From: a virus | Lineage: Duplodnaviria; Heunggongvirae; Uroviricota; Caudoviricetes | Direction: 5' to 3' (one strand) | Virus record (IMG/VR): IMGVR_UViG_2675903324_000015 | Span: 1 to 37,665 of that record | Length of the DNA: 37,665 nt | Shown: one piece after another, positions 4,387-37,378 of the stretch | Layout of the letters: every line of letters begins with the position of its first letter | Position numbering within the stretch: position 1 is the stretch's first letter | Translations under genes and position numbers: made by a program | The notes under the pieces: model-generated | The model's database searches: none | What the model saw: the letters and a program-made list of their open reading frames with translations, nothing else | Told to the model about the DNA's origin: nothing

Positions 4387-4590
4387 ATGACACCTAACAT
4401 TTCAATTACTCTGAATACACCACATGTCACAATCGAACGTTATAGCGAACTGACTGGCCTTGCTATTGATACGATTAACGACATGTTGGCTGATGGCCGA
4501 CTACCTCGTCATCGTCTTCGTAAAGACAAAAAACGTGAAAAGGTAATGATTAACCAGGCTGCTCTGACTGTTGATGCTTTGTCTGTTTAA
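4387..4590 (+). CDS. apl: Apl/Cox-like excisionase and switch regulator (67 aa)
   Basis: Small basic ORF, first gene of the rightward early operon, divergent from cI. Confidence 0.55.
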
Positions 4591-4645
4591 TAGACGTCTA
4601 TTTTCGCAATAAGACGCTGAGTTCGATTTTGCGATAAGTTCGGAG

Positions 4646-5164: not shown

Positions 5165-5171
5165 GGTGCTT

Positions 5172-5372
5172 ATGCTGACGAAAGAACCATCATTTGCATC
5201 GCTGCTGGTAAAACAAAGTCCGGCAATGCACTACGGTCACGGCTGGATCATGGGTGAGGATGGTAAACGCTGGCATCCGTGCCGTTCACAAGATGAATTG
5301 CTGGCAGAACTATCAACGAAAAAACGGGGGAACCAATGGCTATTGAAGGCGCTGCGGCGACTGTTCCATTAA
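5172..5372 (+). CDS. Hypothetical early protein (66 aa), at the position of 186 fil
   Basis: ORF with GAGGTG RBS before ATG at 5172; position in the early operon. Confidence 0.4.
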   Translation: MLTKEPSFASLLVKQSPAMHYGHGWIMGEDGKRWHPCRSQDELLAELSTKKRGNQWLLKALRRLFH

Positions 5373-5677
5373 GCCCCGGTGAACGCCTGAATGGACTTAA
5401 TCATATTGCGGAATTAAGAGCGAAAGTTTTTGGCCTGAATATTGAGTCAGAGCTTGAGCGGTTTATTAAAGATATGCGTGATCCACGGGATATCAATAAT
5501 GAACAAAATAAACGGGCACTGGCTGCCATATTCTTTATGGCAAAAATTCCAGCTGAACGTCATAGCATCAGCATTAATGAGCTGACCACTGACGAAAAGC
5601 GGGAGCTGATTAAAGCAATGAATCATTTTCGTGCAGTGGTGAGCTTATTTCCCAGACGGCTAACCATGCCGAATTAA
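5336..5677 (+). CDS. Hypothetical early protein (113 aa), at the position of 186 dhr
   Basis: ORF in the early operon; no recognisable motif. Confidence 0.4.
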   Translation: MAIEGAAATVPLSPGERLNGLNHIAELRAKVFGLNIESELERFIKDMRDPRDINNEQNKRALAAIFFMAKIPAERHSISINELTTDEKRELIKAMNHFRAVVSLFPRRLTMPN

Positions 5678-5744
5678 CCAACTAATGAAATTCATGGCGT
5701 AAACCCGCCAGGCATCCCTTTATCTAAATTCAGGAGAATTGATT

Positions 5745-5978
5745 ATGCGTAATATTGAAACCCTCACGACTAAAACCGGACCGGATGATGCAGGGCTTAA
5801 TATTTTACTGACAGAGGCTCGTCTGGAAGAACGCCGGGCAAGGGCTGAAGCAATGGCAGCTCGCCTTGATAGCCTGGCGTGTCATATCACATCCCGCCAG
5901 CTAAACCACGTCGAAGCGGCAGAACTGCTGCGTGTGACTGCTGAAGCAATCCAGAACGAAGCGCAGGAGATCCACTGA
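5745..5978 (+). CDS. Hypothetical early protein (77 aa)
   Basis: CAGGAG RBS 8 nt upstream of ATG at 5745; stop overlaps the next start. Confidence 0.45.
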   Translation: MRNIETLTTKTGPDDAGLNILLTEARLEERRARAEAMAARLDSLACHITSRQLNHVEAAELLRVTAEAIQNEAQEIH

Positions 5979-6205
5979 TGGCTGATGCAATGGATCTCGT
6001 ACAGCAGCGCGTTGAAGAAGAACGCCAGCGTCATATCCGTGCTGCCCGCGCCAAAACGCCGGGCGTATCCCGCGTGCTTTGCATTGAGTGTGAAGCACCA
6101 ATTCCGCCAGCACGACGTCGCGCCATTCCGGGTGTGCAGCTTTGCATTACCTGTCAGGAAATCGCAGAGCTGAAAGGCAAACATTACAACGGAGGTGCTG
6201 TATGA
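5978..6205 (+). CDS. TraR/DksA-family C4 zinc-finger protein (75 aa)
   Basis: CxxC...CxxC pattern (CIECEAPIP...CITCQE). Confidence 0.6.
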   Translation: MADAMDLVQQRVEEERQRHIRAARAKTPGVSRVLCIECEAPIPPARRRAIPGVQLCITCQEIAELKGKHYNGGAV

Positions 6206-7050
6206 GCACCATCCTGAAATGGGCGGGTAATAAAACCGCCATTATGCCAGAACTGAAAAAATACCTTCCTGCTGGCCCGCGACTGGTTGAACCTTTCGCG
6301 GGTTCTTGTGCTGTGATGATAGAGACGGATTACCCCAGCTATCTTGTTGCGGATATTAATCCTGATTTAATCAACTTCTATAAAAAGGTTGCTGCTGATT
6401 GCGAGGCGTTTATATCTCGTGCCAGAGCTTTATTTGAGGAAGCAAACAGGGAGGTGGCTTATTACAACATAAGGCAGGAGTTTAATTACTCCACTGAAAT
6501 TACTGATTTCATGAAAGCGGTATATTTCCTGTATCTCAATCGTCATGGTTACCGTGGGTTATGTCGCTATAACAAGAGCGGGCATTTCAACATTCCCTAC
6601 GGGAATTATAAAAATCCGTATTTCCCTGAAAAAGAAATTCGCAAATTTGCAGAAAAAGCCCAGCGAGCAACGTTTATCTGCGCCAGCTTTGATGAAACGC
6701 TGGCGATGTTGAAGGCGGGGGATGTGGTGTATTGCGATCCGCCTTATGACGGTACGTTTTCCGGCTATCACACTGATGGCTTCACTGAGGATGACCAGTA
6801 TCACCTGGCATCCGTTCTTGAACATCGATCATCTGAAGGTCATCCGGTCATTGTTTCTAACAGTGACACATCCCTGATTCGTTCGCTGTATCGCAATTTC
6901 ACTCACCACTACATCAAGGCAAAACGCAGCATTGGCGTGTCAGCTGGCGAGAGTAAATCTGCAACAGAAATCATTGCCACCAAATCAGCTGGGGGGTTTG
7001 GTGTCGATTTTGCCAGCGGCTCTGACCGTACCGTTGAGGTACGCGCATGA
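6202..7050 (+). CDS. DNA N6-adenine methyltransferase (Dam-like), 282 aa
   Basis: Motif I FAGSCAV and motif IV DPPY ([10 protein letters not shown]); GGAGG RBS before ATG at 6202. Confidence 0.85.
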
Positions 7051-8057
7051 ATGCTATCGATCCGCGTTGCTTTGCCTCAGGCACCATTAACGTCATCAAT
7101 ACTTCTGGTGGCAAAGATAGTCTCGCTCAATGGCTAAGAGCCATTGAAAACGATGTTCCGCATATTTCTGTATTTGCCGATACGGGTCATGAACATCCAC
7201 AGACAATAGAATATCTGGATTATCTGGAATCAAAGCTGGGCAAGATTATTCGCGTCAAAGCGGATTTCACACGCCAGATAGAAGGGAAACGTAAATTCAT
7301 TGCGGAAAAGTGGCCCATTTCTCTCGTTGAGGAATGTGGTATGTCGACAGATGAGGCTGAGGAACGTATTTACCGGGCACTGGAAATCCTTAAACCAACC
7401 GGCGTTCCGTTTCTTGATTTGTGCATGTGGAAAGGTCGCTTCCCTTCAACAAAAGCTCGTTTCTGCACTTTTGAACTGAAACATGAACCAATACGTACAC
7501 AGGTAATCGATCCAGCTCTGGATGAATACGATGAGGTAATCAGCTGGCAAGGAGTCCGGGGGCAGGAATCACCGGAACGTGCATTGTTGCCTGAGTGGGA
7601 GGACGATGCAGACAATACTCTGGGGCTGCATGTTTATCGTCCGATCCTTAATTGGCTGCATGAGGATGTGTTTGCTATTGCCAAACGTCATGGCATTAAG
7701 CCTAACCCCCTTTATATGCAGGGATGCAGTCGTGTCGGTTGTATGCCATGCATTCATGCTCGCAAGTCAGAACTTGGAGAGATTTTCCAACGCTGGCCAG
7801 AAGAAATCCGCCGAGTGGCTGAGTGGGAAAGACTGGTTGCGGAATGTTCAAGACGTGGCAATTCAACGTTCTTTCCATCCACGCATGATCCGCGCCGTGC
7901 TGAAAAACGGATCGAAGTCATAACTGTTGATGCTTATGGCATTGAAACTTATCGGGACTGGGCCTTAACGACTCGGGGCGGTATGCAGTTTGACCTGCTG
8001 GCAGGCATGAATGATAAAGCGGTGTGCAGCAGTGTATATGCAGGAGTCTGTGAGTGA
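7047..8057 (+). CDS. PAPS-reductase / ATP-pyrophosphatase-like protein (336 aa)
   Basis: N-terminal PP-loop motif SGGKDS; Cys-rich C-terminal region ([10 protein letters not shown]); start overlaps the Dam stop. Confidence 0.65.
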
Positions 8058-10495
8058 CAGAGATCAGCACAGGCCGTCTTGCCGCTCCATTTGTCAGTGT
8101 AACTTCCGGTAGCATTGAGAATTCTGCCGGGGGTTATTCGTGGAATTTACCTAAGAAAGCCATTAACCCTTATCTGGACCCGGCGGAAGTTGCGCCGGTT
8201 TCTGCGCTTTCAAACCTGATCACTCTGTACGCTACCGATAACGAGCAGGAACAACTGCGCCGCGAGGCACTGAGTGATCAGGTCTGGGAGCGTTATTTCT
8301 TTAATGAATCCCGTGATCCTGTCCAGCGCGAAATGGAGCAGGATAAGCTCATTAGCCGGGCAAAGTTGGCGCATGAGCAGCAGCGTTTTAACCCGGACAT
8401 GGTCATTCTGGCAGACGTCAGCGCCCAGCCCTCCCATATCAGCAAGCCGCTGATGCAACGTATTGAATACTTCAGCAGCCTGGGCAGGCCAAAGGCTTAT
8501 TCCCGCTATTTACGTGAGACGATTAAGCCATGTCTGGAACGACTGGAGCATGTACGCGACAGTCAGCTATCCACTTCTTTTCGCTTTATGGCAAGCCATG
8601 AAGGGCTGGACGGCCTGCTAATCCTGCCTGAAATGAGTCAGGATCAGGTGAAACGCCTGTCCACCCTGGTAGCTGCGCATATGAGCATGTGCCTTGATGC
8701 AGCTTGTGGCGATTTGTATGCCACCGATGATGTTAAGCCAGAAGAAATCCGCAAGACATGGGAAAAGGTGGCAGCAGAAACCCTGCGTCTGGATGTCATC
8801 CCGCCTGCGTTTGAGCAACTCCGTAGGAAAAGAAAGCGCCGTAAACCAGTGCCCTATGAACTCATTCCGGGTTCGCTGGCGCGTATGCTGTGCGCCGACT
8901 GGTGGTATCGGAAATTGTGGAAGATGCGTTGCGAATGGCGGGAAGAGCAGTTGCGTGCTGTCTGCCTGGTCAGCAAAAAAGCATCTCCCTATGTCAGCTA
9001 TGAAGCCGTGATGCATAAACGTGAGCAGCGCCGTAAGTCGCTGGAGTTTTTCCGTTCTCATGAACTGGTGAACGAAGACGGCGACACGCTGGATATGGAA
9101 GATGTGGTAAACGCCAGTAGTAGCAACCCGGCGCATCGCCGCAATGAGATGATGGCATGTGTTAAAGGTCTGGAGCTTATCGCGGAAATGCGCGGTGACT
9201 GCGCCGTTTTCTACACCATCACCTGTCCGTCACGTTTCCATTCCACGCTAAATAACGGCAGGCCCAACCCGACCTGGACAAATGCGACGGTAAGACAAAG
9301 CAGTGATTATCTGGTCGGCATGTTTGCTGCATTTCGTAAGGCGATGCACAAAGCCGGATTGCGCTGGTATGGCGTGCGGGTGGCTGAGCCGCATCATGAC
9401 GGTACAGTTCACTGGCACCTGTTGTGTTTTATGCGCAAAAAAGATCGCCGCGCCATTACTGCTTTGTTGCGTAAGTTTGCCATTCGTGAAGACCGCGAGG
9501 AGCTGGGTAATAACACAGGACCACGCTTTAAGTCTGAGTTGATTAACCCGCGCAAAGGTACGCCAACAAGCTACATCGCGAAATACATCAGTAAGAACAT
9601 TGACGGGCGTGGTCTGGCTGGCGAGATCAGCAAGGAAACGGGTAAATCCCTGCGTGATAACGCTGAATACGTTAATGCCTGGGCGTCTCTGCATCGTGTT
9701 CAGCAATTCCGCTTCTTTGGTATTCCAGGGCGTCAGGCTTACCGTGAACTGCGGTTGTTGGCTGGTCAGGCGGCAAGGCAGCAGGGTGACAAAAAAGCAG
9801 GTGCGCCGGTACTGGATAACCCGCGCCTTGATGCAATCCTGGCTGCTGCTGATGCTGGCTGTTTTGCCACCTACATTATGAGGCAGGGCGGCGTGCTGGT
9901 TCCTCGCAAATATCACTTGATCAGAACCGCTTATGAAATCAATGAAGAGCCGACCGCCTATGGCGATCACGGTATTCGTATTTATGGCATCTGGTCACCC
10001 ATTGCAGAGGGCAAGATCTGCACTCATGCAGTGAAGTGGAAAATGGTTCGTAAAGCCGTTGACGTTCAGGAGGCGGCAGCCGACCAGGGCGCTTGCGCCC
10101 CTTGGACTCGTGGCAATAACTGTCCCCTTGCTGAAAATTTGAACCAACAAGGGAAAGACAAATCAGCTGATGGGGATACTAGGACGGACATTACCCGCAT
10201 GGATGACAAGGAGTTGCACGATTACCTGCACAGTATGAGCAAAAAAGAGCGCCGGGAACTGGCTGCAAGGTTACGCCTGGTGAAACCGAAACGGCGTAAA
10301 GACTACAAACAGCGAATTACAGACCATCAGCGACAGCAGCTCGTCTATGAACTGAAGTCCAGAGGATTTAATGGCAGCGAGAAAGAGGTCGATTTACTCC
10401 TTCGCGGCGGCAGTATTCCGTCAGGAGCAGGCCTGCGTATCTTCTATCGGAACCAGCGTTTGCAGGAAGATGATAAGTGGCGAAACCTGTATTAA
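8054..10495 (+). CDS. A: Replication initiation protein A (rolling-circle nicking endonuclease, P2 gpA family), 813 aa
   Basis: HUH-type motif VHWHLLCF and nearby YIAKYISK tyrosine motif; size and position; GTG start. Confidence 0.85.
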
Positions 10496-10648: not shown

Positions 10649-10837
10649 ATGCAGGACTATTTTTTGGAGTCTTTGAAGCTCCAGCGCATTGATTTTTTTC
10701 TTAAGCTTGTAGCGGCTAGTGAGTGTAGTGATGAAGAGAAGGGGCTGGCTTTGCAGTGGGTTTCTGAACTGACAGATGAACTCATGGCAAAAATCAGAAC
10801 CCACGAATACAACCGCTCAATGGATGTCATCAGCTGA
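10649..10837 (+). CDS. Small SOS-controlled protein (62 aa), possible Tum-like antirepressor
   Basis: AGGAGGA RBS before ATG at 10649, directly downstream of the LexA box. Confidence 0.4.
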   Translation: MQDYFLESLKLQRIDFFLKLVAASECSDEEKGLALQWVSELTDELMAKIRTHEYNRSMDVIS

Positions 10838-10847
10838 GGTGACCTTT

Positions 10848-11081
10848 ATGCGCATTGAAATAATGATCGATAAAGAGCAGAAGATTAGCCAGTCTACCCT
10901 GGACGCCCTTGAATCCGAGCTTTACCGCAATCTGCGCCCCCTGTATCCCAAAACGGTAATTCGCATCCGCAAAGGTAGCTCTAACGGTGTGGAACTGACC
11001 GGACTGCAACTGGACGAAGAAAGAAAACAAGTGATGAAGATTATGCAGAAGGTGTGGGAAGACGACAGCTGGCTGCATTAA
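10848..11081 (+). CDS. DinI-family protein (77 aa)
   Basis: MRIEIMIDK start and C-terminal acidic WEDDSWL resemble E. coli DinI (MRIEVTIAK...ESADDWF). Confidence 0.65.
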   Translation: MRIEIMIDKEQKISQSTLDALESELYRNLRPLYPKTVIRIRKGSSNGVELTGLQLDEERKQVMKIMQKVWEDDSWLH

Positions 11082-12157: not shown

Positions 12158-12733
12158 ATGCTTTTACCCGTAAGTGTTACATCGTGTGGCTTGTATCACC
12201 CCTACTGGCATTTGGGAGAGCGCAACCCTCATAGCGATGAACTATCAAGGCAGATGATGGATTTTAAGGATGAAAATAATCGTAATCATCAAAGGGCTAT
12301 TAACCGTTTTTCTCGATTAGCTATAGATAAGGTTGGGCGGTTAGTAATCAGAGGTGGCGGTGGGCGTTTTGTTGAGTCTCCTTTTTCGATAGCAGTCGTC
12401 CCGTCTCACACTGAAGGCAGAATTTCACCGGCTTTGATTGAGGTCGCCGAGCGAATCGTAAATGTTCACCGTCGGGGCATTGTTGATTGCTGTTTGGAAA
12501 GAACACGCACTGTTCCTAGCGCACATCGTGAAGGAGGCGATCGCTCAATTACTGGTCACATGTCTAGTATCAGAGTTAGGGGTGGTAACCTCATGGGGCG
12601 AAATGTGTTACTACTAGATGATGTTAAAACAACAGGCGGTAGTTTGTCTGCGTGTTTTTATTTACTGGAGTCTGCAGGAGCTGGAGTTATAATGCCATTA
12701 GCTCTGCTAGAAACTGCAAACTATGAGGAGTAG
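12158..12733 (+). CDS. Phosphoribosyltransferase (PRTase, ComF-like) domain protein; true start may be internal
   Basis: Canonical PRPP-binding motif VLLLDDVKTTGGSL near the C-terminus. Confidence 0.75.
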   Translation: MLLPVSVTSCGLYHPYWHLGERNPHSDELSRQMMDFKDENNRNHQRAINRFSRLAIDKVGRLVIRGGGGRFVESPFSIAVVPSHTEGRISPALIEVAERIVNVHRRGIVDCCLERTRTVPSAHREGGDRSITGHMSSIRVRGGNLMGRNVLLLDDVKTTGGSLSACFYLLESAGAGVIMPLALLETANYEE

Positions 12734-13697
12734 CAAAGTGCACTCAGAAGAATTAAAAAATACACTTGGATTAGCTATTCAAATCGGGAAGCTAGCATCT
12801 GATCAAAGTGTATTGAAATTCTTTGAGCTTATTGATTTTGATGTTATTCGTGATATACGCGACTTAACTGAGATGGTTAATAGCCACGGGTTTCTAAAAG
12901 ATAAAATATCTGAGACTGATTTTCTAATAGCGAACGCTGAATTGGAGAACCACCATGTTAATGGTGTGGAGCTAATACCATATGGGTCTGAATTCTATCC
13001 TCTTAGTTTAGCGTTTACTCCTAATCCACCATCAATTCTCTACATAAAAGGGGATAAAAGTATACTAAAAGAATTGCCGGGTGTCGCAATTGTAGGATCC
13101 CGTGATACTTCCCCTGCAGGGGAAGAAATAACGAGGCGAATCACTAATCAGATAGTGTCTGCTGGGTATATTGTTGTAAGTGGGTTAGCAATAGGCACTG
13201 ATGCGAATGCTCATAAGGCAACGTTACAAGCAAAAGGAAAAACCATTGCTGTCTTGGCGCATGGTCTTGAGGAGGCTAAGCCGAAGCAAAACAGTCGACT
13301 TGCTCAAGAGATTCTGGATAAAGGTGGTGCATGGATTTCTGAGTATCCTATGGGTCGACCGGCCCAGAAACAATCATTTGTACAAAGAAATCGGATACAA
13401 GTTGGATTATCTGCAGGTTCAATTTTAATCGAGGCTGCGTTAAATAGCGGAACGATAACTCAAGCTGAGTTTGCAAATAAGGCGAAAAGACCAGTGTTTG
13501 CGGTTGTACCTCACCTACCTAATAATCCGCTTAATCTTAATTGTGAGGGAACAGTTGATTTAGTTAAGAGCAACATGGCTAGAGCGTTAAAAACAAAACG
13601 GGATTATGATGATGTGATTATGATCATAAATGAGTCTCGGGAGTATTTGTTAGAGCTAAAATGGCCAGGGAAACAGAGTACATTAGACTTGATTTAA
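12723..13697 (+). CDS. DprA/Smf-like (SLOG Rossmann-fold) protein, 324 aa; alternative GTG start at 12738
   Basis: DprA-type signature GVAIVGSRDTSP...GLAIGTDANAH...KTIAVLAHGLE...ISEYPMG...QRNRIQVGLS...PVFAV; overlaps the PRTase gene. Confidence 0.75.
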   Translation: MRSSKVHSEELKNTLGLAIQIGKLASDQSVLKFFELIDFDVIRDIRDLTEMVNSHGFLKDKISETDFLIANAELENHHVNGVELIPYGSEFYPLSLAFTPNPPSILYIKGDKSILKELPGVAIVGSRDTSPAGEEITRRITNQIVSAGYIVVSGLAIGTDANAHKATLQAKGKTIAVLAHGLEEAKPKQNSRLAQEILDKGGAWISEYPMGRPAQKQSFVQRNRIQVGLSAGSILIEAALNSGTITQAEFANKAKRPVFAVVPHLPNNPLNLNCEGTVDLVKSNMARALKTKRDYDDVIMIINESREYLLELKWPGKQSTLDLI

Positions 13698-19978: not shown

Positions 19979-19981
19979 ATT

Positions 19982-20197
19982 ATGACGCTTGAGCGAATCA
20001 GCGCCTTTATCACGTATTGCATCGCCGTCGTGCTGGCCTGGCTGGGCGATTTGTCCATCAAGGATGCCTCAACGCTGGGCGGCCTGATGATTGGTGTGCT
20101 GATGCTGGCTATCAACTGGTACTACAAACACAAAGCCTACCAGCTTCTGCGCGACGGGCAGATCTCGCGGGAGGACTATGAATCCATCAATCGTTAA
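19982..20197 (+). CDS. Putative holin (71 aa, two hydrophobic helices)
   Basis: Hydrophobic segments ISAFITYCIAVVLAWL and LGGLMIGVLMLAINWYY, charged C-terminus, upstream of the endolysin. Confidence 0.6.
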   Translation: MTLERISAFITYCIAVVLAWLGDLSIKDASTLGGLMIGVLMLAINWYYKHKAYQLLRDGQISREDYESINR

Positions 20198-20693
20198 ACG
20201 CTGCCTTGTCGGGACCGTGCTGGCTATTACTGCCACGCTGCCGGGTTTTCAGCAGCTTCACACCTCCGTGGAGGGGCTGAAACTGATTGCTGATTACGAA
20301 GGCTGTCGTCTGCAGCCGTATCAGTGCAGCGCGGGTGTCTGGACCGACGGCATTGGTAATACATCGGGCGTCATCCCGGGCAAAACCATTACGGAACGAC
20401 AGGCAGCGGAAGGGCTGATCTCCAACGTGCTGCGTGTGGAGCGGGCGCTGGAAAGGTGTGTGAAGCAACAGCCGCCGCAGAAGGTGTATGACGCTGCGGT
20501 GTCGTTTGCCTTCAACGTGGGCACGGGCAATGCCTGCAGTTCCACGCTGGTGAAATTGCTCAATCAGCGGCGCTGGGCGGATGCGTGCCGACAGTTGCCG
20601 CGCTGGGTTTATGTGAAAGGTGTTTTTAATCAGGGGCTGGATAACCGCCGTGCGCGGGAGATGGCCTGGTGCCTTAAAGGAGCTGGACTATGA
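20178..20693 (+). CDS. K: Endolysin, T4-lysozyme-like (GH24), possible N-terminal SAR anchor
   Basis: Catalytic E...D...T pattern (ADYEGCRLQPYQCSAGVWTDGIGNT); hydrophobic Gly/Ala-rich N-terminus. Confidence 0.75.
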   Translation: MNPSIVKRCLVGTVLAITATLPGFQQLHTSVEGLKLIADYEGCRLQPYQCSAGVWTDGIGNTSGVIPGKTITERQAAEGLISNVLRVERALERCVKQQPPQKVYDAAVSFAFNVGTGNACSSTLVKLLNQRRWADACRQLPRWVYVKGVFNQGLDNRRAREMAWCLKGAGL

Positions 20694-21118
20694 CGCGTGC
20701 GCTGGCAGTAGTGGTGGCGCTGGCACTCGTTGCGCTGGGCTGGCAGTCGTGGCGGCTTAACAGCGCCAGCCACACCATCGAAACGCAGCGCGCGGCGCTG
20801 AAAAGTAAAGCGCAGGAACTGACGAAGAAAAACAGCCAGCTGATCGGTCTGTCCATTCTGACTGAAACCAATAACCGGGAGCAGGCGCGGCTCTATGCCG
20901 AAGCAGAACAGACCAGCGCACTGCTGAGACAACGACAACACCGGATCGAGGAACTGAAACGTGAGAACGAGGATTTACGCCGCTGGGCTGATACTCCTTT
21001 GCCTGCTGACATTACCCGGCTGCGGGAACGTCCGGCACTCACCGGAGGTACAGCTTACCGTCAGTGGTTGTCCGCGAGTGACGCCGTGTCGGCTGGCTCA
21101 GGCAACGCCGCGCACTAA
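20690..21118 (+). CDS. lysB: i-spanin (Rz/LysB-like)
   Basis: N-terminal TM helix, coiled-coil-like periplasmic region. Confidence 0.65.
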   Translation: MTRALAVVVALALVALGWQSWRLNSASHTIETQRAALKSKAQELTKKNSQLIGLSILTETNNREQARLYAEAEQTSALLRQRQHRIEELKRENEDLRRWADTPLPADITRLRERPALTGGTAYRQWLSASDAVSAGSGNAAH

Positions 21119-21251
21119 CGGTGATCTGAACGCGTTGCTGGATGAAACGGAGGCCGCCTGGGCGGTCTGTGCAGACAAAGTGGACATGATTATTGCGTGT
21201 CAGGAGCGAAACAGTGAACAAACCACAATCCCTGCGCCACGCCCTCAGTAA
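20961..21251 (+). CDS. lysC: o-spanin (Rz1/LysC-like lipoprotein) in an alternate frame overlapping lysB
   Basis: Signal peptide with lipobox-like LTLPGC, Pro-rich mature region. Confidence 0.5.
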   Translation: MRTRIYAAGLILLCLLTLPGCGNVRHSPEVQLTVSGCPRVTPCRLAQATPRTNGDLNALLDETEAAWAVCADKVDMIIACQERNSEQTTIPAPRPQ

Positions 21252-21645
21252 AGCGGTGCCTTATGTCCGCAATAACCCGGACAAACTGCATCTGTTTGTG
21301 GATAACGGTTCGCTGGTTGCCACGGGGGCCAGCTCCATGTCGTGGGAGTACCGTTACACTCTGAACGCGGTGATTGAGGATTTCAGCGGCGACCAGAATC
21401 TGCTGATGGCCCCGGTTTTGCTGTGGCTGCGGGATAACCAGCCCGATGCCATCAATAACCCGGCGTTACGGGAAAAACTATTTACCTTTGAGGTGGATAT
21501 TCTGCGTAACGATGTCTGTGATATCAGCCTTAACCTGCAACTGACGGAACGTGTGCTGGTCAGCACTGACGGCAGTGTGTCGAGCGTTGAAGCTGTAGCA
21601 GAACCCGATGAACCTGAAGAAATGTGGACGGTGAAACGTGGCTGA
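21193..21645 (+). CDS. R: Tail completion protein R (P2 gpR family)
   Basis: Position and size (150 aa). Confidence 0.65.
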   Translation: MRVRSETVNKPQSLRHALSKAVPYVRNNPDKLHLFVDNGSLVATGASSMSWEYRYTLNAVIEDFSGDQNLLMAPVLLWLRDNQPDAINNPALREKLFTFEVDILRNDVCDISLNLQLTERVLVSTDGSVSSVEAVAEPDEPEEMWTVKRG

Positions 21646-22090
21646 ACTGCAGAAGGTGGACGACTGGCTTAGTGCCTTACTGGCGAATCTGGAACCAGTC
21701 GCAAGAAGCCGCATGATGCGCCAGCTGGCGCAGGAACTGCGCCGGACACAGCAGCAGAATATCAGGATGCAGCGCAATCCAGATGGCAGCAGTTATGAAC
21801 CTCGACGGGTAACAGCACGCAGTAAAAAGGGGCGCATCAAACGTCAGATGTTTGCAAAGCTGCGCACCACAAAATACCTGAAAACTGCCGCCAGCGCCGA
21901 CTCTGCCAGCGTACAGTTTGAAGGTAAGGTGCAGCGTATTGCCCGTGTTCACCATTACGGTCTGCGCGATCGCGTCAGTAGCAAAGGACCTGAGGTCCGC
22001 TATGCAGAGCGCAAATTATTGGGTTTTAGTTCTGTATCAGTAAATGTAGTCAATGACATTATATATTCATGGATTACTAATTTAGATTAA
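21638..22090 (+). CDS. S: Tail completion protein S (P2 gpS family); last ~25 codons are AT-rich
   Basis: Position and size; composition shifts abruptly near 22013. Confidence 0.65.
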   Translation: MAELQKVDDWLSALLANLEPVARSRMMRQLAQELRRTQQQNIRMQRNPDGSSYEPRRVTARSKKGRIKRQMFAKLRTTKYLKTAASADSASVQFEGKVQRIARVHHYGLRDRVSSKGPEVRYAERKLLGFSSVSVNVVNDIIYSWITNLD

Positions 22091-22126
22091 ATACGTTAAA
22101 TGGCAGAAGTCTGCCATTTCTTCAAC

Positions 22127-22879
22127 TTAAATGCTGAGGTTGTTTTTACACAATAGAATGAAGTCGCAGTACATCTTATGGATTTTAGTTCCCCATTTGT
22201 TAGCTTTTTTTATGGTTTCAGATGTCTCAGGGCTTAAATCCCACGAGGCTCTCTCTCTGTCGGTAAGTATAGACATGAATTCGCTACAGTTTAAATATCC
22301 AGAGTGACAGGATAAAAAATAGTTAAATTTAGTTATTTCTTTGAGTAATTCAATTGATTTGTTTTCTATGTCATCATCATGAAAATGATGATTGGCCTTT
22401 CCCCATTCATAGCAATACGTACTCATGTCTTTAAGGTTGGAGTTATGAAAAGTATTACCAAAGTCATGGGTTTTCAGAAATTCTATTGATTTCGAATCAG
22501 GTGGTAATAATTTTATAAACTCATTATATAACTTAACGTCAGAGTCTCTTTTTCTCTCCGATGCTTCTCTGTTTTCTTTGTCTTTAATAATTTCAAAGTA
22601 CCACTCAGGTGCTTTGCTTAATAAGTTGTAGATTAATCCAAAAGCAATTAAAGTGATGGCCACTACTGTGCTTGGGTTGCCGTTTTCTATGTTTATTATA
22701 TCAATATCTGTATTGAATTTTTTATTATAAATATCAATTAAAAAATTAAGAGCCATTAGATAGTATGGAATTGGTAGTGCGATTATACCTATTCCAGTTA
22801 TAACTAAGAGCCAAGTTATTTTATTACTAAACTCAGGAAATATCACATTGATTATTTTTTTTGCAATCTGTTTTTTCAT
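22127..22879 (-). CDS. Hypothetical membrane protein (250 aa, two N-terminal TM helices plus soluble domain); reverse-strand moron between S and V
   Basis: Very AT-rich; TM segments ITWLLVITGIGIIALPIPYYLMALNFLI and VVAITLIAFGLIYNLL; opposite strand to all flanking late genes. Confidence 0.6.
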   Translation of the reverse strand: MKKQIAKKIINVIFPEFSNKITWLLVITGIGIIALPIPYYLMALNFLIDIYNKKFNTDIDIINIENGNPSTVVAITLIAFGLIYNLLSKAPEWYFEIIKDKENREASERKRDSDVKLYNEFIKLLPPDSKSIEFLKTHDFGNTFHNSNLKDMSTYCYEWGKANHHFHDDDIENKSIELLKEITKFNYFLSCHSGYLNCSEFMSILTDRERASWDLSPETSETIKKANKWGTKIHKMYCDFILLCKNNLSI

Positions 22880-22907
22880 TATGTAACCCTCTGAAAAGTA
22901 TCCTTAT

Positions 22908-22925
22908 TGTGCCATGTTTCGTACA
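22908..22925. promoter_or_regulatory. Late-promoter activator site TGT-N12-ACA upstream of V
   Basis: TGTGCCATGTTTCGTACA about 50 bp upstream of the V start. Confidence 0.5.
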
Positions 22926-22971
22926 TCATTATCTACTGGTAGATGATGCGAATGACACTTAAGTTAATGAC

Positions 22972-23550
22972 ATGAATGCACAACTGACCGAAATCATGCG
23001 CCTTATCACCAACCTGATCCGCACAGGTGTAGTCACCGAAGTGGATCGGAAGAAATGGCTGTGCCGGGTGAAGGTAGGCGAGCTTGAAACCAACTGGATT
23101 AACTGGCTGACGCTGCGCGCCGGTGGTGCCCGTACATGGTGGTGTCCGTCGCCGGATGAGCAGGTGGTGGTGCTGAGCATGGGCGGCAATCTGGAAACCG
23201 CTTTTGTGCTGCCCGCCATCTATTCCAATCAGTTTCCACCGCCCTCGGATTCTGTGGACGGCAGTGTGACGGAGTACTTGGACGGGGGCTGGTTTGAGTA
23301 TGAACCCGCCACCGGACGCTGGCATGTCAGGGGCATCAAATCCGTGGTAATCGAGGCAGCAGACAGCGTCACCTACAAAACCAGTGAGTTTGTGGTGGAA
23401 GCAGACAGAACGCGTATTAACAGCGACATGGTGATCAATGGCAGCGTCAGCCAGGAGGGTGGCGCAATGAGTTCTAACGGGATCGTGGTTGATGCGCATC
23501 AGCATACTGGCGTCCTGAAAGGCGGCGACACAACCGGAGGCCCGGTATGA
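22972..23550 (+). CDS. V: Baseplate spike/assembly protein V
   Basis: Position and size; P2 gene order. Confidence 0.75.
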   Translation: MNAQLTEIMRLITNLIRTGVVTEVDRKKWLCRVKVGELETNWINWLTLRAGGARTWWCPSPDEQVVVLSMGGNLETAFVLPAIYSNQFPPPSDSVDGSVTEYLDGGWFEYEPATGRWHVRGIKSVVIEAADSVTYKTSEFVVEADRTRINSDMVINGSVSQEGGAMSSNGIVVDAHQHTGVLKGGDTTGGPV

Positions 23551-24801: not shown

Positions 24802-25399
24802 TCTGCTGCCACCGGGTTCAACACCACTGGAGCGCCGACTGGCGCAAACCTGCAGCGGGATTTCTGATCTGCAGGTGCCGCTTCGTGACTTGTGGAATCC
24901 GGCAACCTGTCCGGTCAGTTTCCTGCCTTATCTCGCCTGGGCGTTCTCTGTAGATCGCTGGGACGAGGGCTGGACAGAAAGCGTCAAGCGCCAGGTGGTG
25001 AAGGATGCTTTTTATATTCATCAGCATAAAGGGACCACCAGTGCCGTGCGGCGGGTGGTGGAGCCGTTCGGCTTTCTGATCCGCATTATTGAGTGGTGGC
25101 AGACCGGAGAGGCACCGGGCACGTTTCGCCTGGATATCGGCGTGCAGGACCAGGGTATCACTGAAGATACCTATCTGGAACTTGAGCGACTGATAAGCGA
25201 TGCCAAACCATGTAGCCGCCACATGATCGGCATGTCCATCAATCTGCAGACCAGCGGCCCGCATTGGGTGGGAGCCGCCAGCTATCTTGGCGAAGAAATC
25301 ACGATCTATCCGTATATCAACGAAACGATTATTTCCGGTGGCACCGCGCATGAAGGCGGGGCGGTCCATGTTATTGACACAATGAGAGTGAATCCATGA
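24794..25399 (+). CDS. I: Baseplate/tail protein I
   Basis: Position and overlap pattern. Confidence 0.65.
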   Translation: MNSLLPPGSTPLERRLAQTCSGISDLQVPLRDLWNPATCPVSFLPYLAWAFSVDRWDEGWTESVKRQVVKDAFYIHQHKGTTSAVRRVVEPFGFLIRIIEWWQTGEAPGTFRLDIGVQDQGITEDTYLELERLISDAKPCSRHMIGMSINLQTSGPHWVGAASYLGEEITIYPYINETIISGGTAHEGGAVHVIDTMRVNP

Positions 25400-27144
25400 G
25401 CACAAAATTTTATACCCTGCTGACGGATATTGGCGCGGCGAAACTTGCCAGCGCCGCCGCGCTCGGTGTGCCGCTAAAAATTACCCATATGGCGGTGGGC
25501 GATGGCGGCGGAGTATTGCCAACGCCGGACGCAAAGCAGACGGCACTGGTAAATGAGAAACGCCGGGCTGCGCTGAATATGCTTTATATCGATCCGCAGA
25601 ACAGCAGCCAGATTATTGCTGAACAGGTGATCCCTGAAAACGAGGGCGGTTGGTGGATACGTGAAGTGGGCTTGTTTGATGAGTCCGGGGCATTGATTGC
25701 CGTGGGTAACTGCCCGGAAAGCTATAAGCCGCAACTGGCTGAAGGCAGTGGGCGTACCCAGACCGTGCGCATGGTGCTGATTACCAGCAGTACGGACAAT
25801 ATCATCCTGAAAATCGACCCTGCTGTAGTGCTGGCAACCCGCAAGTATGTGGATGACAAAATATCAGAGCACGAACAGTCACGACGTCACCCGGACGCCT
25901 CGCTGACCGCAAAAGGTTTTACTCAGTTAAGCAGTGCGACCAACAGTGAATCCGAAATACTGGCCGCAACACCGAAGGCTGTGAAGGCTGCATATGATCT
26001 TGCAGCAGGTAAAGCATCCGCCAGTCACACACACCCGTGGAATCAGATAACAGGTGTACCTGCAGCCTCGCTGACGGTAAAAGGCACCGTGCAACTCAGC
26101 AGCGCCACTAACAGCACATCAGAAACGCAGGCTGCCACTCCAAAGGCAGTGAAGGCTGTATATGACCTTGCAGCAGGTAAGGCACCTGTCAGTCACACAC
26201 ACCCGTGGAATCAGATAACGGATGTGCCTGCAGCTTCACTGACGGTAAAAGGCACCGTGCAACTCAGCAGCGCCACTAACAAGTCAGAAACGCAGGCTGC
26301 CACACCAAAAGCTGTGAAGGCTGTATATGACCTTGCCAATGGAAAACAACCTGCCGACGCCACACTGACCGCACTGGCAGGCCTTGCCACTGCGGCAGAC
26401 AAACTACCGTATTTTACGGGGAATGATACAGCCAGCCTGACAACCCTGACTAATGTTGGACGGGATATTCTGGCTAAAACAAGCAAACAGGAGGTTATTC
26501 GTTATCTTGGTTTGGGAGATACAAGCGGATACGTGGGACGCCGGCTGAGTACCCGGGCTTTCGCGTCATCAGGTACGTATACCCCATCACCAGAAACAAA
26601 ACGGATCAGGGTCACAATAACGGGCGGCGGTGGCGGAGGGGGCGGCTGCAAGGCTACATCCAATAATGAAACGTTTTTCGGTGCTGGCGGTGGGGCCGGT
26701 GGAACAATAATTTCAATAATGACCCCGACACAGAATAGTTATCCAGTCACTATCGGCGCAGGTGGGGCCGGTGGTGTTAGTGCAACGAACGGCACCAGGG
26801 GCGGGAATAGCGTATTCGCATCGTTAATTGCTCCTGGTGGCGAAGGTGGCGGGAAAGTGGGTGTTACAAACACAAACGGCGGTAACGGAGGTGTGCCGAG
26901 TACTGGCGATATCCGCATCACTGGTGGAGATGGAGGCGACGGTCAGTCCGGAAATATCGGCGTCAGCGGTGAAGGCGGAACATCGTACTGGGGTGGCGGT
27001 GGACGCGCAGGCGCTGGCGGTGGCGTTAGAGGCAGGGCATTTGGTTCAGGCGGAGGTGGTGCATACGATGCAGGTTATAGCGGAACCAGTATGACGGGCG
27101 GGAAAGGTGCTGATGGGGTTTGTATTATCGAGGAGTTTGCATAA
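25396..27144 (+). CDS. H: Tail fibre protein H with internal tandem repeats and a glycine-rich C-terminal domain
   Basis: 582 aa; about 2.5 copies of a ~56-aa repeat; C-terminal 180 aa dominated by Gly runs. Confidence 0.8.
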   Translation: MSTKFYTLLTDIGAAKLASAAALGVPLKITHMAVGDGGGVLPTPDAKQTALVNEKRRAALNMLYIDPQNSSQIIAEQVIPENEGGWWIREVGLFDESGALIAVGNCPESYKPQLAEGSGRTQTVRMVLITSSTDNIILKIDPAVVLATRKYVDDKISEHEQSRRHPDASLTAKGFTQLSSATNSESEILAATPKAVKAAYDLAAGKASASHTHPWNQITGVPAASLTVKGTVQLSSATNSTSETQAATPKAVKAVYDLAAGKAPVSHTHPWNQITDVPAASLTVKGTVQLSSATNKSETQAATPKAVKAVYDLANGKQPADATLTALAGLATAADKLPYFTGNDTASLTTLTNVGRDILAKTSKQEVIRYLGLGDTSGYVGRRLSTRAFASSGTYTPSPETKRIRVTITGGGGGGGGCKATSNNETFFGAGGGAGGTIISIMTPTQNSYPVTIGAGGAGGVSATNGTRGGNSVFASLIAPGGEGGGKVGVTNTNGGNGGVPSTGDIRITGGDGGDGQSGNIGVSGEGGTSYWGGGGRAGAGGGVRGRAFGSGGGGAYDAGYSGTSMTGGKGADGVCIIEEFA

Positions 27145-35045: not shown

Positions 35046-36731
35046 TTATCCTAATCCTGGCCATACCATGACGATGATTGTCCCTGCCAGCGTCAGCAGG
35101 ACGTTGGCGATTGCGTAGGTGCCCGCATAGCCCAGCGCAGGGATGTTACTGCGAGCTGTATCACTGATGATCTCCATTGCCGGCGCGCAGGTGCGTGCGC
35201 CCATCATTGCGCCGAACAACAGTGCGCGGTTCATTCGCAATACATAAGCACCGAACAAGAAACAGATAACCACGGGCACAAGACTGACAATTAATCCGGC
35301 AATCAACATCTGACCGCCAATCGCGCCCAGGCCGTTATTAATACCGCTACCGGCGCTCAGACCAACGCCTGCCATAAACACCATCAAGCCGAACTCTTTC
35401 ACCATGCTTAATGCACCTTGCGGAATGTAACCGAAGGTCGGGTGGTTAGCACGCATAAAGCCCAGCATAATTCCGGCGAATAACAACCCGGCAGCGTTCC
35501 CCATGCCGAAACTGAATGTGCTGAACTGGAAGGTGATCATCCCGATCATCAGCCCAATAACAAAGAAGGCGCAAAATGCCAGCAGGTCAGTGACCTGGCT
35601 GTGAATCGAGATAAAGCCGATGCGATCGGCGATGGTTTTTACGCGACGGGCATCACCGCTGACTTGTAAAACGTCACCTTTGTTAAGCACGACGTTGTCA
35701 TCTATCGGCATCTCAATCTGGCTACGAATGACGCGGTTAAGGAAGCAACCGTGATCGGTCAACTTCAGTTGTGCGAGACGTTTACCTACAGCGTTATGGT
35801 TTTTAACGACCACTTCTTCAGTGACGATACGCATGTCGAGAAGGTCACGATCGAAAACTTCTTTACCGTTACGGAAGCTGGGATCGAGTCGGGCATGGGC
35901 GTCGGGATAGCCTACCAACGCTATTTCATCGCCCATTTGTAGCACGGCATCACCGTCTGGATTTGCCAGAATCCCGTTACGTCGAATACGTTCAATGTAG
36001 CAGCCGGTTTGTCGATAAATACCCAGTTCACGCAGATTTTTGCCGTCGGTCCAGGCCACCAGCTCCGGGCCGACGCGATAGGCGCGGATCACCGGTAAAT
36101 AAACCTTACGGTTGGCATCAGTGTCCAGGCCACGTTCGCGGGCGATTTGCTGGGCGCTGGTCTGTAAGTCCTGATGCTGCAATTTCGGCAAGTAACGCGC
36201 ACCAACAATCAAACTCACCAGACCGATTAAATAGGTTAAGGCATATCCGAGGCTCAGATTATCCAGTGCCAGTGAGAGCTGCCTGCTTTCCATACCGGAA
36301 TGACGCAGTGTATCGCCAGCACCGACCAGAACCGGTGTCGACGTCATAGAGCCTGCTAACATACCGGCCGTCAGGCCAATATCCCAGCCAAACAGCTTAC
36401 CTAACCCTAAGGCGATCACCAGCGCACTGCCAACCATCACCAGTGCTAACATTAGGTAATTTTTCCCATCGCGAAAAAAAATGGAAAAAAAGTTCGGTCC
36501 GGCTTCGACCCCGACGCAGAAAATAAACAGCATAAAGCCAAGATTAAGCGCATCGGTGTTAATGCTGAAATGTTGTTGGCCTAATAACAGCGATACGACT
36601 AAAACGCCAATGGAATTACCCAGTTGGATCGAACCAAGTCGTAACTTTCCGAGACATAGCCCAAGCGCGAGGACCACAAATAATAACAGAATGTAATTCC
36701 CATTTAACAATTCGGCGACGTTTATATTCAC
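35046..36731 (-). CDS. ybjL: Putative transport protein YbjL (host gene), 561 aa
   Basis: Multi-pass membrane protein with central soluble domains; recognised as E. coli YbjL. Confidence 0.75.
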
Positions 36732-37000
36732 GGAGGCTAACTTCTTGTTTACTAGTAAGCTGTTGAAAGAAATGGTAATTTACGATAATGTTTTTTACCA
36801 GAATTCAGGGCGCAGATTCATTCAGCGCACCTAAACGATAGTAAAGTAACAATATATTTTACTAGTGTAATCACATTAGGTATCAACGGCTATATGAATT
36901 GCGTTGGCCTATATTAGCATGGAATGCGAAGCGGCTTTATCTTACTGAACGCCACACTGGCGAAAAATGTGTTCGATAGACGCAGTGTCAGGAGGAACGA

Positions 37001-37378
37001 GTGAAACATAAACAACGTTGGGCGGGGGCAATCTGCTGTTTTGTCCTCTTCATTGTGGTTTGCCTTTTTCTGGCGACGCACATGAAAGGCGCTTTTCGGG
37101 CTGCCGGGCATCCTGAAATCGGCTTGCTGTTTTTCATTCTTCCTGGAGCAGTTGCCAGTTTCTTTTCACAGCGTAGAGAAGTCCTGAAACCTCTATTTGG
37201 CGCAATGCTGGCGGCACCCTGTTCAATGCTTATTATGCGGCTGTTTTTTTCACCGACCCGCTCATTCTGGCAAGAGCTGGCATGGTTACTAAGCGCGGTG
37301 TTCTGGTGTGCGCTGGGGGCACTGTGTTTCTTATTTATCAGTAGTTTGTTTAAACCACAGCACAGAAAAAATCAGTAA
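37001..37378 (+). CDS. ybjM: Inner membrane protein YbjM (host gene)
   Basis: 125 aa hydrophobic protein between ybjL and grxA, as in E. coli. Confidence 0.65.
   Translation: MKHKQRWAGAICCFVLFIVVCLFLATHMKGAFRAAGHPEIGLLFFILPGAVASFFSQRREVLKPLFGAMLAAPCSMLIMRLFFSPTRSFWQELAWLLSAVFWCALGALCFLFISSLFKPQHRKNQ

What the first reader, a model, noticed from the sequence alone, without database searches (positions are those of the whole stretch)
22013..22971. Reverse-strand 2-TM membrane protein inserted between S and V (orf30-like cargo site)
A strongly AT-rich, oppositely oriented gene sits inside the late tail operon between the tail-completion genes and the baseplate genes, with the AT-rich sequence extending into the last ~25 codons of S. 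The product has two N-terminal TM helices and a ~150-aa cytoplasmic domain with an HHFHDDD patch. Orientation and composition fit a lysogen-expressed exclusion or abortive-infection effector rather than a virion component.
Basis: partly seen in the sequence, partly recalled or inferred. Interest (0 to 1): 0.65.

Follow-up and report, generated by a model that had tools for sequence, protein, structure and literature searches.

The report
Candidate defence gene at P2 S/V junction
A P2-like prophage carries, between its tail-completion gene S and baseplate gene V, a rare swapped-in membrane-protein gene whose C-terminal domain is elsewhere fused to TIR and Schlafen immune modules, making it a plausible but untested new anti-phage gene at a little-studied phage cargo site.

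Summary
A 250-aa ORF (22127-22879, minus strand, GC 0.31 against about 0.57 in the flanks) lies between S and V of a P2-like prophage. Homology to relatives stops at 22012/22013, inside S, and resumes exactly at the V ATG (22972).

- **Rarity.** The cassette is in 20 of about 1,039 related E. coli prophage sites. About half of a sample were empty; others carry TIR, SIR2, AIPR, DUF6216 or FRG genes.
- **Real gene.** It is under purifying selection (dN/dS 0.16). Every enterobacterial homologue I looked up (41-76% identity) sits at the same site, reversed.
- **No known family.** Pfam, PHROGs, NCBIfam and PDB gave nothing; PADLOC gave only noise.
- **Wider family.** A profile search found 818 cluster representatives. 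The C-terminal domain of about 145 aa recurs behind TM, TIR and Schlafen N-termini. Distant members neighbour Abi_alpha, SEFIR/TIR, methylase and Shedu-like genes.

Best reading, inferred and untested: a lysogen-expressed, single-gene sensor-effector abortive-infection protein.

- The site is the boundary between the O and V operons, not inside an operon.
- The HHFHDDD patch is not conserved across the family.
- The cassette brings its own S tail, hairpin and Ogr box.

The parts
21638..22090 (+). Gene S (tail completion / virion morphogenesis), last gene of the P2-type O operon
   Evidence: The ORF is listed. It is 93-99% identical to the S genes of related prophages up to 22012. Homologous loci carry PF05069 Phage_tail_S.
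22013..22090 (+). Alternative AT-rich C-terminus of S (25 codons plus stop), part of the swapped cassette
   Evidence: GC is 0.23 against 0.56 for the rest of S. The sequence KLLGFSSVSVNVVNDIIYSWITNLD keeps the LLG...D.I..W pattern of the RLLGVNDDVEAMTRDMILQWLAG tail found at empty sites. The same tail travels with the 81% cassette variant.
22098..22119 (.). Hairpin between the convergent S and cargo genes; candidate bidirectional terminator
   Evidence: It has a 9-bp stem and a 4-nt loop, with dG -11.8 (+ strand) and -14.5 (- strand) kcal/mol. It is conserved in the 81% variant with loop changes, and there it is followed by a T9 run. P2 annotates a putative rho-independent terminator for the O operon at the same place. 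The consensus terminator scan did not flag it because the T tract is weak.
22127..22879 (-). Cargo gene: 250-aa inner-membrane protein (TM module plus conserved C-terminal helical domain)
22811..22840 (-). Residues 14-23, FPEFSNKITW, the near-invariant juxtamembrane motif before TM1
   Evidence: P15 is invariant, and N19 and G29 are at least 90% conserved, in 49 sequences. The consensus is FPDFxNKLTW.
22727..22819 (-). Residues 21-51, first hydrophobic segment (kinked at P36/P38)
   Evidence: Hydropathy 1.4-2.0. The AlphaFold2 model has helices 20-34 and 39-55.
22613..22675 (-). Residues 69-89, second transmembrane helix, continuing as a long helix to about residue 124
22136..22564 (-). Residues 106-248, conserved C-terminal helical-bundle domain (putative sensor), shared with TIR, Schlafen and other TM fusions
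   Evidence: An HMM built only from the C-termini of five TIR/Schlafen fusions hits residues 106-248 at 100 bits. The best of 2,000 shuffles scored 7.3 bits. pLDDT is 94-98 over this stretch.
22370..22390 (-). HHFHDDD patch (residues 164-170)
   Evidence: It is present, but only F166 is invariant family-wide. The broader consensus is AExxFxDxELE.
22887..22891 (-). Shine-Dalgarno-like GAGGG, 7 nt before the cargo ATG
   Evidence: Read from the sequence. Equivalent purine-rich boxes occur in all variants.
22906..22914 (-). Predicted extended -10 (TGgCACAAT) of the cargo promoter, overlapping the left half-site of the Ogr box
   Evidence: CATGGCACAATA is conserved in 7 of 8 cassette variants despite 41-76% protein identity; L007 has TGgTACAAT. 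An ACAA[AT] flank is also present with the other reverse-strand cargos (Cartapus, DUF6216, AIPR). It is absent at the empty site and with the forward-strand TIR and SIR2 cargos. The promoter has not been shown experimentally.
22930..22935 (-). Possible -35 (TAGATA), 18 nt upstream of the -10
   Evidence: Read from the sequence and conserved in most variants. The match is weak (4 of 6) and the promoter scan did not return it.
22908..22925 (.). TGT-N12-ACA dyad: Ogr/late-activator box of the V-operon promoter
   Evidence: It lies 46 nt before the V ATG. A dyad at 46-48 nt is found in 14 of 15 S/V sites examined, whatever the cargo; the regex found none in P2 itself. P2 annotates an activator binding site and a transcription start at the V start codon.
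22972..23550 (+). Gene V (baseplate spike), first gene of the V operon; right border of the cassette
   Evidence: Homologous loci carry PF04717 Phage_base_V.

Best explanation
The segment 22013-22971 is an exchangeable cargo cassette. It sits at the boundary between the P2-type O operon (ending with S) and the V operon (starting with V), which is the orf30 site of P2.

Contents and movement. The cassette carries one gene plus everything needed to keep the phage functional: a replacement S C-terminus, a hairpin after S, and an Ogr box at the correct spacing for V. It most likely moves between P2-like phages by homologous recombination in S and V.

The protein. It is an inner-membrane protein. 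An N-terminal TM module (conserved FP[DE]FxNKxTW motif plus two hydrophobic segments) is joined by a long helix to a cytoplasmic helical-bundle domain of about 145 aa.

Proposed mechanism (inferred, not shown):
1. The gene is transcribed in the lysogen from a sigma-70 extended -10 promoter.
2. The protein waits in the membrane in an autoinhibited state.
3. The C-terminal domain senses a cue from an infecting foreign phage.
4. The TM module then oligomerises and permeabilises or depolarises the membrane, aborting the infection.
5. Because the -10 overlaps the Ogr box, the gene would be shut off when the prophage itself enters late lytic growth.
For: Shown:
- Cargo status and exact junctions.
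- Rarity: 20 of about 1,039 sites.
- In a spread sample of 52 S..V places, 25 were empty and 27 occupied. The cargos included TIR x3, SIR2, AIPR, DUF6216 x7 and FRG x2, and the four cargos measured have GC 0.33-0.37.
- Purifying selection, dN/dS 0.16.
- All eight homologues checked at 41-76% identity (mostly identified as enterobacterial) lie between S and V on the opposite strand, or beside V with only an S remnant in L007.
- The family has 818 representatives. The C-domain is shared with TIR_2 (P0079, P0102), CAP12/Pycsar-type TIR (P0090; P0097 just below Pfam's gathering cut-off, 22.5 against 24.7 bits) and Schlafen AlbA_2 (P0058) N-termini, and with many unrelated TM N-termini. The reciprocal HMM scored 100 bits.
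- Neighbours of distant members are defence- or mobile-element-type: a Tn7-like element plus BrnT, a DNA methylase, SEFIR/TIR plus C5 methylase, HNH plus a DEAD/ResIII helicase, Abi_alpha, DUF6602/ASCH, and SduA_C/DUF6361.
- The same prophage carries ShosTA and PDC-M11 at its other cargo sites.
- P2's own record shows the same layout: terminator, reverse nonessential gene, activator site.

Inferred: topology, promoter and Ogr overlap, and the mechanism of action.
Against: - There is no experimental or expression evidence.
- PADLOC-DB v2, Pfam, PHROGs and NCBIfam do not recognise the protein.
- TIR and Schlafen fusions are a small minority, 5 of the 150 best representatives.
- Several distant members sit beside ordinary genes: a sulfate ABC transporter, ketopantoate reductase, subtilase and beta-lactamase.
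- The promoter is only a consensus-like match and the standard scan did not report it.
- The neighbourhood evidence is anecdotal, with no enrichment statistic.
Confidence: 0.55

Rival explanations
1. Superinfection exclusion at the envelope. The membrane protein blocks DNA injection or receptor function of incoming phages, as Sie/Imm/Cor-type proteins do, without killing the cell.
For: It is a small prophage-encoded inner-membrane protein at a cargo site. P2 Orf30 and the DUF6216 cargo at the same site are also membrane proteins.
Against: The conserved part of the family is the cytoplasmic C-domain. That domain is also attached to soluble TIR and Schlafen modules that act inside the cell, so an envelope-blocking role would not explain the shared domain. 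PHROGs has no exclusion family matching it.
Confidence: 0.15
2. A lysogenic-conversion or housekeeping membrane protein unrelated to phage defence, for example stress sensing, envelope modification or signalling, carried as a moron.
For: No defence library recognises it. Some distant members sit among ordinary metabolic genes. The fold is a generic helical bundle.
Against: The site is shared with TIR, SIR2 and AIPR cargo. The effector-type domain swaps and the repeated placement next to Abi, RM or TA genes and in mobile elements also fit defence better.
Confidence: 0.15
3. A phage-lifecycle accessory or addiction element: a lysis-timing or holin-like modulator, or a toxic membrane protein that stabilises the prophage.
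For: It lies about 1 kb downstream of the lysis cassette (holin, endolysin, LysB/C at about 19980-21250). It is a small TM protein.
Against: It is on the opposite strand, outside the late operons, and absent from about 98% of closely related prophages. No antitoxin-like partner ORF is in the cassette. Homologues occur outside phages.
Confidence: 0.1

Closest known systems
Bacteriophage P2 orf30 (NP_046770, nonessential gene between S and V)
   Same: It occupies the same site and the same reverse orientation, and has low GC (0.34). It is flanked by the O-operon terminator and the pV activator site, is a membrane protein of similar size (261 aa), and has no known function.
   Different: There is no detectable homology: the A2 profile scores -5.7 bits, and tblastn of the phage collection, which includes P2, finds nothing. 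The hydrophobic segments are arranged differently.
Validated P2-like defence hotspots: old/tin between A and Q, and fun(Z) (Rousset 2022, PMC9122126; Vassallo 2022, PMC9519451)
   Same: These are short, low-GC, high-turnover loci between conserved P2 genes. They carry lysogen-expressed single- or few-gene anti-phage systems. This prophage itself has ShosTA at the A-Q site.
   Different: This is a different locus. The S/V (orf30) site was listed as a horizontally acquired variable region (PMC3091744), but neither study analysed or validated it as a defence hotspot. Cassettes here must also preserve an S C-terminus and the pV promoter.
TM-effector / TIR-effector swaps in signalling defence systems (Pycsar PycTM/PycTIR, CBASS 2TM effectors, SLATT-domain proteins)
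   Same: An N-terminal TM module is interchangeable with TIR in front of a common C-terminal regulatory domain. The expected outcome is membrane disruption and abortive infection.
   Different: The cassette holds no cyclase or other partner gene. There is no cNMP-binding, SAVED or SLATT Pfam match. The shared domain is a previously unclassified helical bundle, and it sits at the C-terminus.
Lambda RexAB and other prophage membrane Abi proteins
   Same: These are prophage-encoded and lysogen-expressed, and are thought to abort infection by collapsing membrane potential.
   Different: Rex has two components (sensor RexA plus 4-TM RexB). Here sensor and effector would be a single polypeptide. There is no sequence similarity. 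This comparison rests on general knowledge and was not tested here.

Membership tests
P2 Orf30 family | Sequence homology to P2 Orf30 | tested here: not met
   hmmsearch of the A2 profile against P2 Orf30 scores -5.7 bits. tblastn against 50,697 phage records, including P2, found no match.
P2 Orf30 family | Position between S and V, reverse strand, between the O-operon terminator and the pV activator site | tested here: met
Phage hotspot cargo (moron) of P2-like phages | Variable occupancy between conserved genes, atypical composition, own expression signals | tested here: met
   The cassette is at 20 of about 1,039 sites. Of the 52 sampled S..V places, 25 were empty and the rest held at least 8 other cargo types. 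GC is 0.31 against 0.57. The hairpin and promoter-like elements are predicted only.
Known anti-phage defence families (PADLOC-DB v2.0.0) | Significant HMM match to a defence protein model | tested here: not met
   The only hit is RTasDnaG-like at E 0.0021 and 14.8 bits, over the TM region, which I judge to be noise. TM-type relatives P0010, P0055 and P0075 have no hit. In the TIR and Schlafen fusions only the N-terminal modules hit.
SLATT (2TM effector) domain proteins | Match to Pfam SLATT_1-6 models | tested here: not met
   There is no Pfam family at E up to 1 for the window protein, and none among the 49 family members.
SLATT (2TM effector) domain proteins | Genomic association with SMODS/SLOG or other nucleotide-signal genes | tested here: not met
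   The cassette contains a single gene between S and V.
Pycsar / CBASS TM effectors | Cyclic-nucleotide-binding or SAVED sensor domain and an adjacent cyclase | tested here: not met
   No such Pfam or PADLOC domains are found, and there is no neighbouring cyclase.
HEPN-domain Abi proteins | Four-helix bundle carrying a conserved R-x4-6-H motif | tested here: not met
Holin / antiholin / spanin lysis proteins | Location in the late lysis cassette, co-orientation with late genes, conservation among relatives | tested here: not met
   It is on the opposite strand, outside the holin-endolysin-LysB/C block, and absent from most relatives.
Single-protein sensor-effector abortive-infection systems (functional class) | Phage-triggered growth arrest or cell death that protects the population | not testable with these tools
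   This needs expression and phage-challenge experiments. Only architecture and context support it.

The most novel reading that the evidence does not exclude
The C-terminal helical domain defines a widespread, unclassified sensor module of a new single-protein abortive-infection family with interchangeable effectors (2TM, 1TM, TIR, Schlafen). The family has 818 representatives at the 50%-identity cluster level. The S/V (orf30) junction would then be a third, so far unvalidated defence hotspot of P2-like phages. In it, the -10 element of reverse-strand cargo genes is built into the Ogr box of the V-operon promoter, so the prophage silences its own defence gene when it goes lytic.
Probability: 0.3. 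Interest if true: 0.7.

Novelty: new member of a known kind. Interest (0 to 1): 0.55.

Why it matters
Two P2 hotspots (A-Q and Z/fun) have already yielded many validated defence systems. The S/V site has been known as variable since the P2 comparative work but was not mined. Here it turns out to hold TIR, SIR2 and AIPR genes alongside several unannotated ones in about half of a sample of related E. coli prophages.

The gene in this window gives that site a concrete, testable candidate:
- It is a single 250-aa gene, easy to clone.
- It belongs to a family of hundreds of clusters that has no Pfam, PADLOC or PDB assignment.
- Its C-terminal domain appears behind classical immune effector modules.

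If the gene is validated, three things follow. It would add a new sensor domain to the defence repertoire. It would justify a systematic census of S/V cargo. It would also offer a simple model of how a prophage could couple silencing of a defence gene to its own late transcription.

Tried and rejected
- **Family searches.** Pfam, PHROGs and NCBIfam on the protein found nothing. Pfam on 49 family members gave only two stray single hits.
- **PADLOC.** The one weak RTasDnaG-like hit lies over the TM region; I rejected it as compositional.
- **Solved structures by sequence.** Nothing below E 0.1.
- **First AlphaFold2 run.** With 6 sequences it gave pLDDT 57 and was unusable. The 49-sequence run gave pLDDT 90.6.
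- **Other collections.** tblastn against the phage and plasmid collections found no match.
- **Other S/V cargos.** I tested whether the TIR, SIR2, AIPR and DUF6216 cargos share this C-domain. They do not.
- **P2 Orf30 and the Cartapus cargo.** I tested both as homologues. They are not.
- **HHFHDDD as a metal or catalytic site.** Rejected, because it is not conserved across the family.
- **Rfam.** The scan of the cassette gave only sub-threshold noise.
- **Terminator and promoter consensus scan.** It found no terminator, and promoter-like sites were at the shuffle expectation.
- **Locus search.** The search for related loci with the broad alignment failed for lack of a conserved stretch. A sub-clade alignment worked.
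- **Literature.** I found no paper naming these proteins or treating S/V as a defence hotspot.
Full report
**1. The observation**

The window is a P2-like (Peduoviridae) prophage. S is at 21638-22090 (+) and V at 22972-23550 (+). Between them lies a 250-aa ORF on the minus strand, 22127-22879.

GC falls from 0.52-0.62 in the flanks to 0.29-0.35 across 22000-22900. The ORF is 0.311.

Megablast against 50,697 phage records found 41 relatives. None covers the middle of the query. In most, S and V are 68 bp apart.

Alignment places the left junction at 22012/22013 and the right junction exactly at the V ATG, 22972.

The last 25 codons of S (GC 0.23) are replaced by a diverged but recognisably homologous tail. 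It reads KLLGFSSVSVNVVNDIIYSWITNLD, against RLLGVNDDVEAMTRDMILQWLAG at empty sites.

**2. It is a real gene and it is cargo**

- The cassette occurs in 20 of 5,426 complete E. coli genomes: 4 at 99.9% identity and 16 at about 81%.
- The S core of this phage lineage occurs at 1,039 places in 1,009 genomes.
- 565 places have the empty-site junction. 22 carry the unrelated reverse gene of phage Cartapus.
- Against the 81% variant, the flanks are 95-99% identical but the cassette only 75-85%. dS is 0.77 in the cargo gene against 0.40 in the S core, and dN/dS is 0.16. The gene is mosaic and under purifying selection.
- The word-indexed search of 5.8 billion proteins found only 5 clusters with the single sequence, and a few more with a profile.
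- Every relative at 41-76% identity whose context could be read lies beside V on the opposite strand. These come from E. coli, Raoultella, Enterobacter and metagenomes. All but L007 also have an intact S on the other side; L007 keeps only an S remnant next to umuDC-like genes.
- No deposited phage or plasmid record encodes a detectable homologue.

**3. The site**

The P2 reference record annotates this order:
- S;
- a putative rho-independent terminator for the O operon;
- Orf30 (261 aa, minus strand, nonessential);
- the activator binding site of pV;
- V, with the V-operon transcription start at the V start codon.

So the site is the boundary between two late operons, not the inside of one.

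The window reproduces this layout. A 9-bp hairpin lies at 22098-22119, with dG -11.8 and -14.5 kcal/mol on the two strands. A TGT-N12-ACA dyad lies at 22908-22925, 46 nt before the V ATG. A dyad at 46-48 nt is present in 14 of the 15 S/V sites I examined, whatever the cargo.

P2 Orf30 is also a low-GC membrane protein, but it is not homologous to this protein.

The literature lists the orf30 locus as one of three regions of P2-like phages that hold horizontally acquired genes (PMC3091744; PMC6823313). The two systematic defence studies covered only the A-Q locus (PMC9122126) and the A-Q and Z/fun loci (PMC9519451).

**4. What else sits at the site**

I took a spread sample of 52 E. coli places where S and V could be joined. 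25 were empty and 27 were occupied:

| Cargo (RefSeq annotation) | Places | Strand |
|---|---|---|
| This cassette | 2 | minus |
| DUF6216 | 7 | minus |
| TIR | 3 | plus |
| FRG | 2 | not checked |
| AIPR (abortive infection) | 1 | minus |
| SIR2 | 1 | plus |
| PcfJ | 1 | not checked |
| Hypothetical proteins, several sizes | remainder | not checked |

The four cargos I measured (TIR, SIR2, AIPR, DUF6216) have GC 0.33-0.37, and none shares this protein's C-domain.

The same prophage carries ShosTA at the A-Q hotspot (12158-13697). It also carries the PADLOC candidate system PDC-M11 next to the CI repressor (1132-2554).

**5. The protein**

- **Hydrophobic segments.** They are residues 21-51 (kinked at P36/P38) and 69-89.
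- **Topology.** Across 49 family members the N-terminus and the post-TM2 stretch are K/R-rich and the loop is acidic. This fits N-in/C-in with a cytoplasmic C-domain.
- **Model.** With a 49-sequence alignment AlphaFold2 gives pLDDT 90.6. It shows an N-terminal helix, two short hydrophobic helices, a long helix 71-124 and a helical bundle 130-248 with a small beta hairpin.
- **Fold searches.** They return only generic helical bundles.
- **Family libraries.** No Pfam, PHROGs, NCBIfam or PDB sequence match was found. PADLOC gives only a noise-level hit.

**6. The wider family**

An exhaustive HMMER search with a profile of the close homologues found 818 representatives at E up to 1e-3 and 156 at E up to 1e-10.

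About 50 of the listed hits are full-length proteins of about 250 aa with the near-invariant N-terminal motif FP[DE]FxNKLTW. Most of the rest match only profile positions of about 105-254.

That C-terminal domain always ends the protein. It follows very different N-termini:
- unrelated one- or two-TM segments (112 of 149 have at least one strongly hydrophobic segment);
- TIR_2 (P0079, P0102);
- CAP12/Pycsar-type TIR (P0090; P0097 scores 22.5 bits, just below Pfam's 24.7-bit gathering cut-off);
- Schlafen AlbA_2 (P0058).

PADLOC recognises only those N-terminal modules.

As a reciprocal test, an HMM built only from the last 150 residues of the five TIR/Schlafen proteins hits window residues 106-248. 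The score is 100 bits, E 3e-23 even scaled to 5.8 billion sequences. The best of 2,000 shuffles scored 7.3 bits.

Conserved positions are D114, the LPSxS...L[KR]xHDFGxxF block, W159, F166 and N227. The HHFHDDD patch is fixed only in the enterobacterial clade.

**7. Context of distant members**

Full-length relatives occur in Pseudoalteromonas, Aeromonas, Marinomonas, Halomonas, Photobacterium, Bowmanella, Pararhizobium, Thiothrix and Flavobacterium. In several loci the gene's GC is lower than that of its surroundings.

Defence- or mobile-element-type neighbours:
- a Tn7-like TniB/TniQ element with BrnT;
- a DNA methylase;
- SEFIR/TIR plus a C5 methylase;
- DUF6602 plus ASCH;
- a borderline AbiGi-like protein;
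- HNH plus a 1,066-aa DEAD/ResIII helicase;
- Abi_alpha;
- SduA_C, DUF6361 and a helicase.

Other members sit next to ordinary genes. This is suggestive, but I did not test it for enrichment.

**8. Expression signals (inferred)**

Upstream of the cargo ATG, all eight cassette variants conserve the sequence that reads CATGGCACAATA on the coding strand, or a close variant of it; L007 has TGgTACAAT, and L035 has one substitution outside the TGnCACAAT core. It has the form of an extended -10 (TGnCACAAT).

Its ACA is the left half-site of the Ogr box. A purine-rich Shine-Dalgarno box follows.

The other reverse-strand cargos (Cartapus, DUF6216, AIPR) also have ACAA[AT] at this position. The empty site and the forward-strand TIR and SIR2 cargos do not.

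This suggests that reverse cargo genes use a promoter interlocked with the pV activator site, so Ogr binding could shut them off. No transcript data were available.

**9. Conclusion**

Shown:
- a rare, recombination-delimited cargo cassette at the P2 orf30 site;
- a real, constrained membrane-protein gene;
- membership of a large unclassified family whose C-terminal domain combines with TM, TIR and Schlafen modules;
- a site that also hosts hallmark defence domains.

Inferred: a lysogen-expressed, single-protein sensor-effector abortive-infection function acting through the membrane (confidence about 0.55). The rivals are envelope-level exclusion, a non-defence membrane function, or a lifecycle/addiction role.

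I rate it as a new member of a known kind, with moderate interest.

Noticed in passing
window 12158-13697 (+): Two low-GC genes at the A-Q (old/tin) hotspot match the ShosTA defence system. ShosT scores E 3.6e-14. ShosA scores E 2.8e-70 and has a DprA-like DNA_processg_A domain.
   Followed up: partly
window 1132-3646 (-): A very AT-rich block (GC 0.27-0.31) lies between the ORF at the left end and the CI repressor (3675-4328). It encodes PADLOC candidate system PDC-M11: M11A at 1475-2554 (E 1e-133) and M11B, an ASCH-domain protein, at 1132-1503 (E 2e-49). It also holds a 354-aa gene (2582-3646) with no hit in Pfam or PADLOC.
   Followed up: partly
E. coli prophage loci L029-L032 (S/V site): The S/V junction of related E. 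coli prophages carries TIR (266 aa, + strand), SIR2 (407 aa, + strand), AIPR (566 aa, - strand) and DUF6216 (268 aa, - strand, present in E. coli B) genes. FRG, PcfJ and several hypothetical proteins also occur there. About half of the 52 sampled places are occupied.
   Followed up: partly
window 22924-22948: An imperfect palindrome, CATCAT(T)ATCTAC-TG-GTAGATGATG, lies between the Ogr box and the V start. It is partly retained in the 81% variant as TTATC...GATAA. It could be an operator or part of pV; I did not resolve this.
   Followed up: no
window 23000-23400: The 5' half of V is only 76-86% identical to the 81%-cassette prophages, while downstream genes are 96-99%. The exchanged tract therefore extends into V in that lineage.
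   Followed up: no
window 25396-27144 (+): The tail-fibre ORF contains three tandem copies of a motif of about 45 aa (SLTVKGTVQLSSATN..ETQAATPKAVKA.YDLA.GKA..SHTHPWNQIT). It also has a glycine-rich C-terminal third with a GGGGGGG run (translation).
   Followed up: no
window 35046-37378: The right end of the window appears to be host DNA. It holds an Asp-Al_Ex/TrkA_C permease (35046-36731, -) and a YbjM-family membrane protein (37001-37378, +), so the prophage ends before about 35 kb. The ORF at 1-1053 (-) at the left end was not characterised.
   Followed up: no
L007 (metagenome contig, 2227 bp): The most divergent enterobacterial-type homologue (41% identity) has V on one side. On the other side it has only an S remnant followed by umuD/umuC-like reading frames, which suggests a rearranged or decayed prophage.
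   Followed up: no
L010 (Logan contig) 2811-9526: A distant full-length family member (22% identity) is cargo of a Tn7-like element (TniB, TniQ). It lies directly upstream of a BrnT toxin / HTH pair.
   Followed up: no
window 10776-11081 (+): A DinI-like protein (PF06183, E 1e-22) is encoded just downstream of the replication gene region.
   Followed up: no
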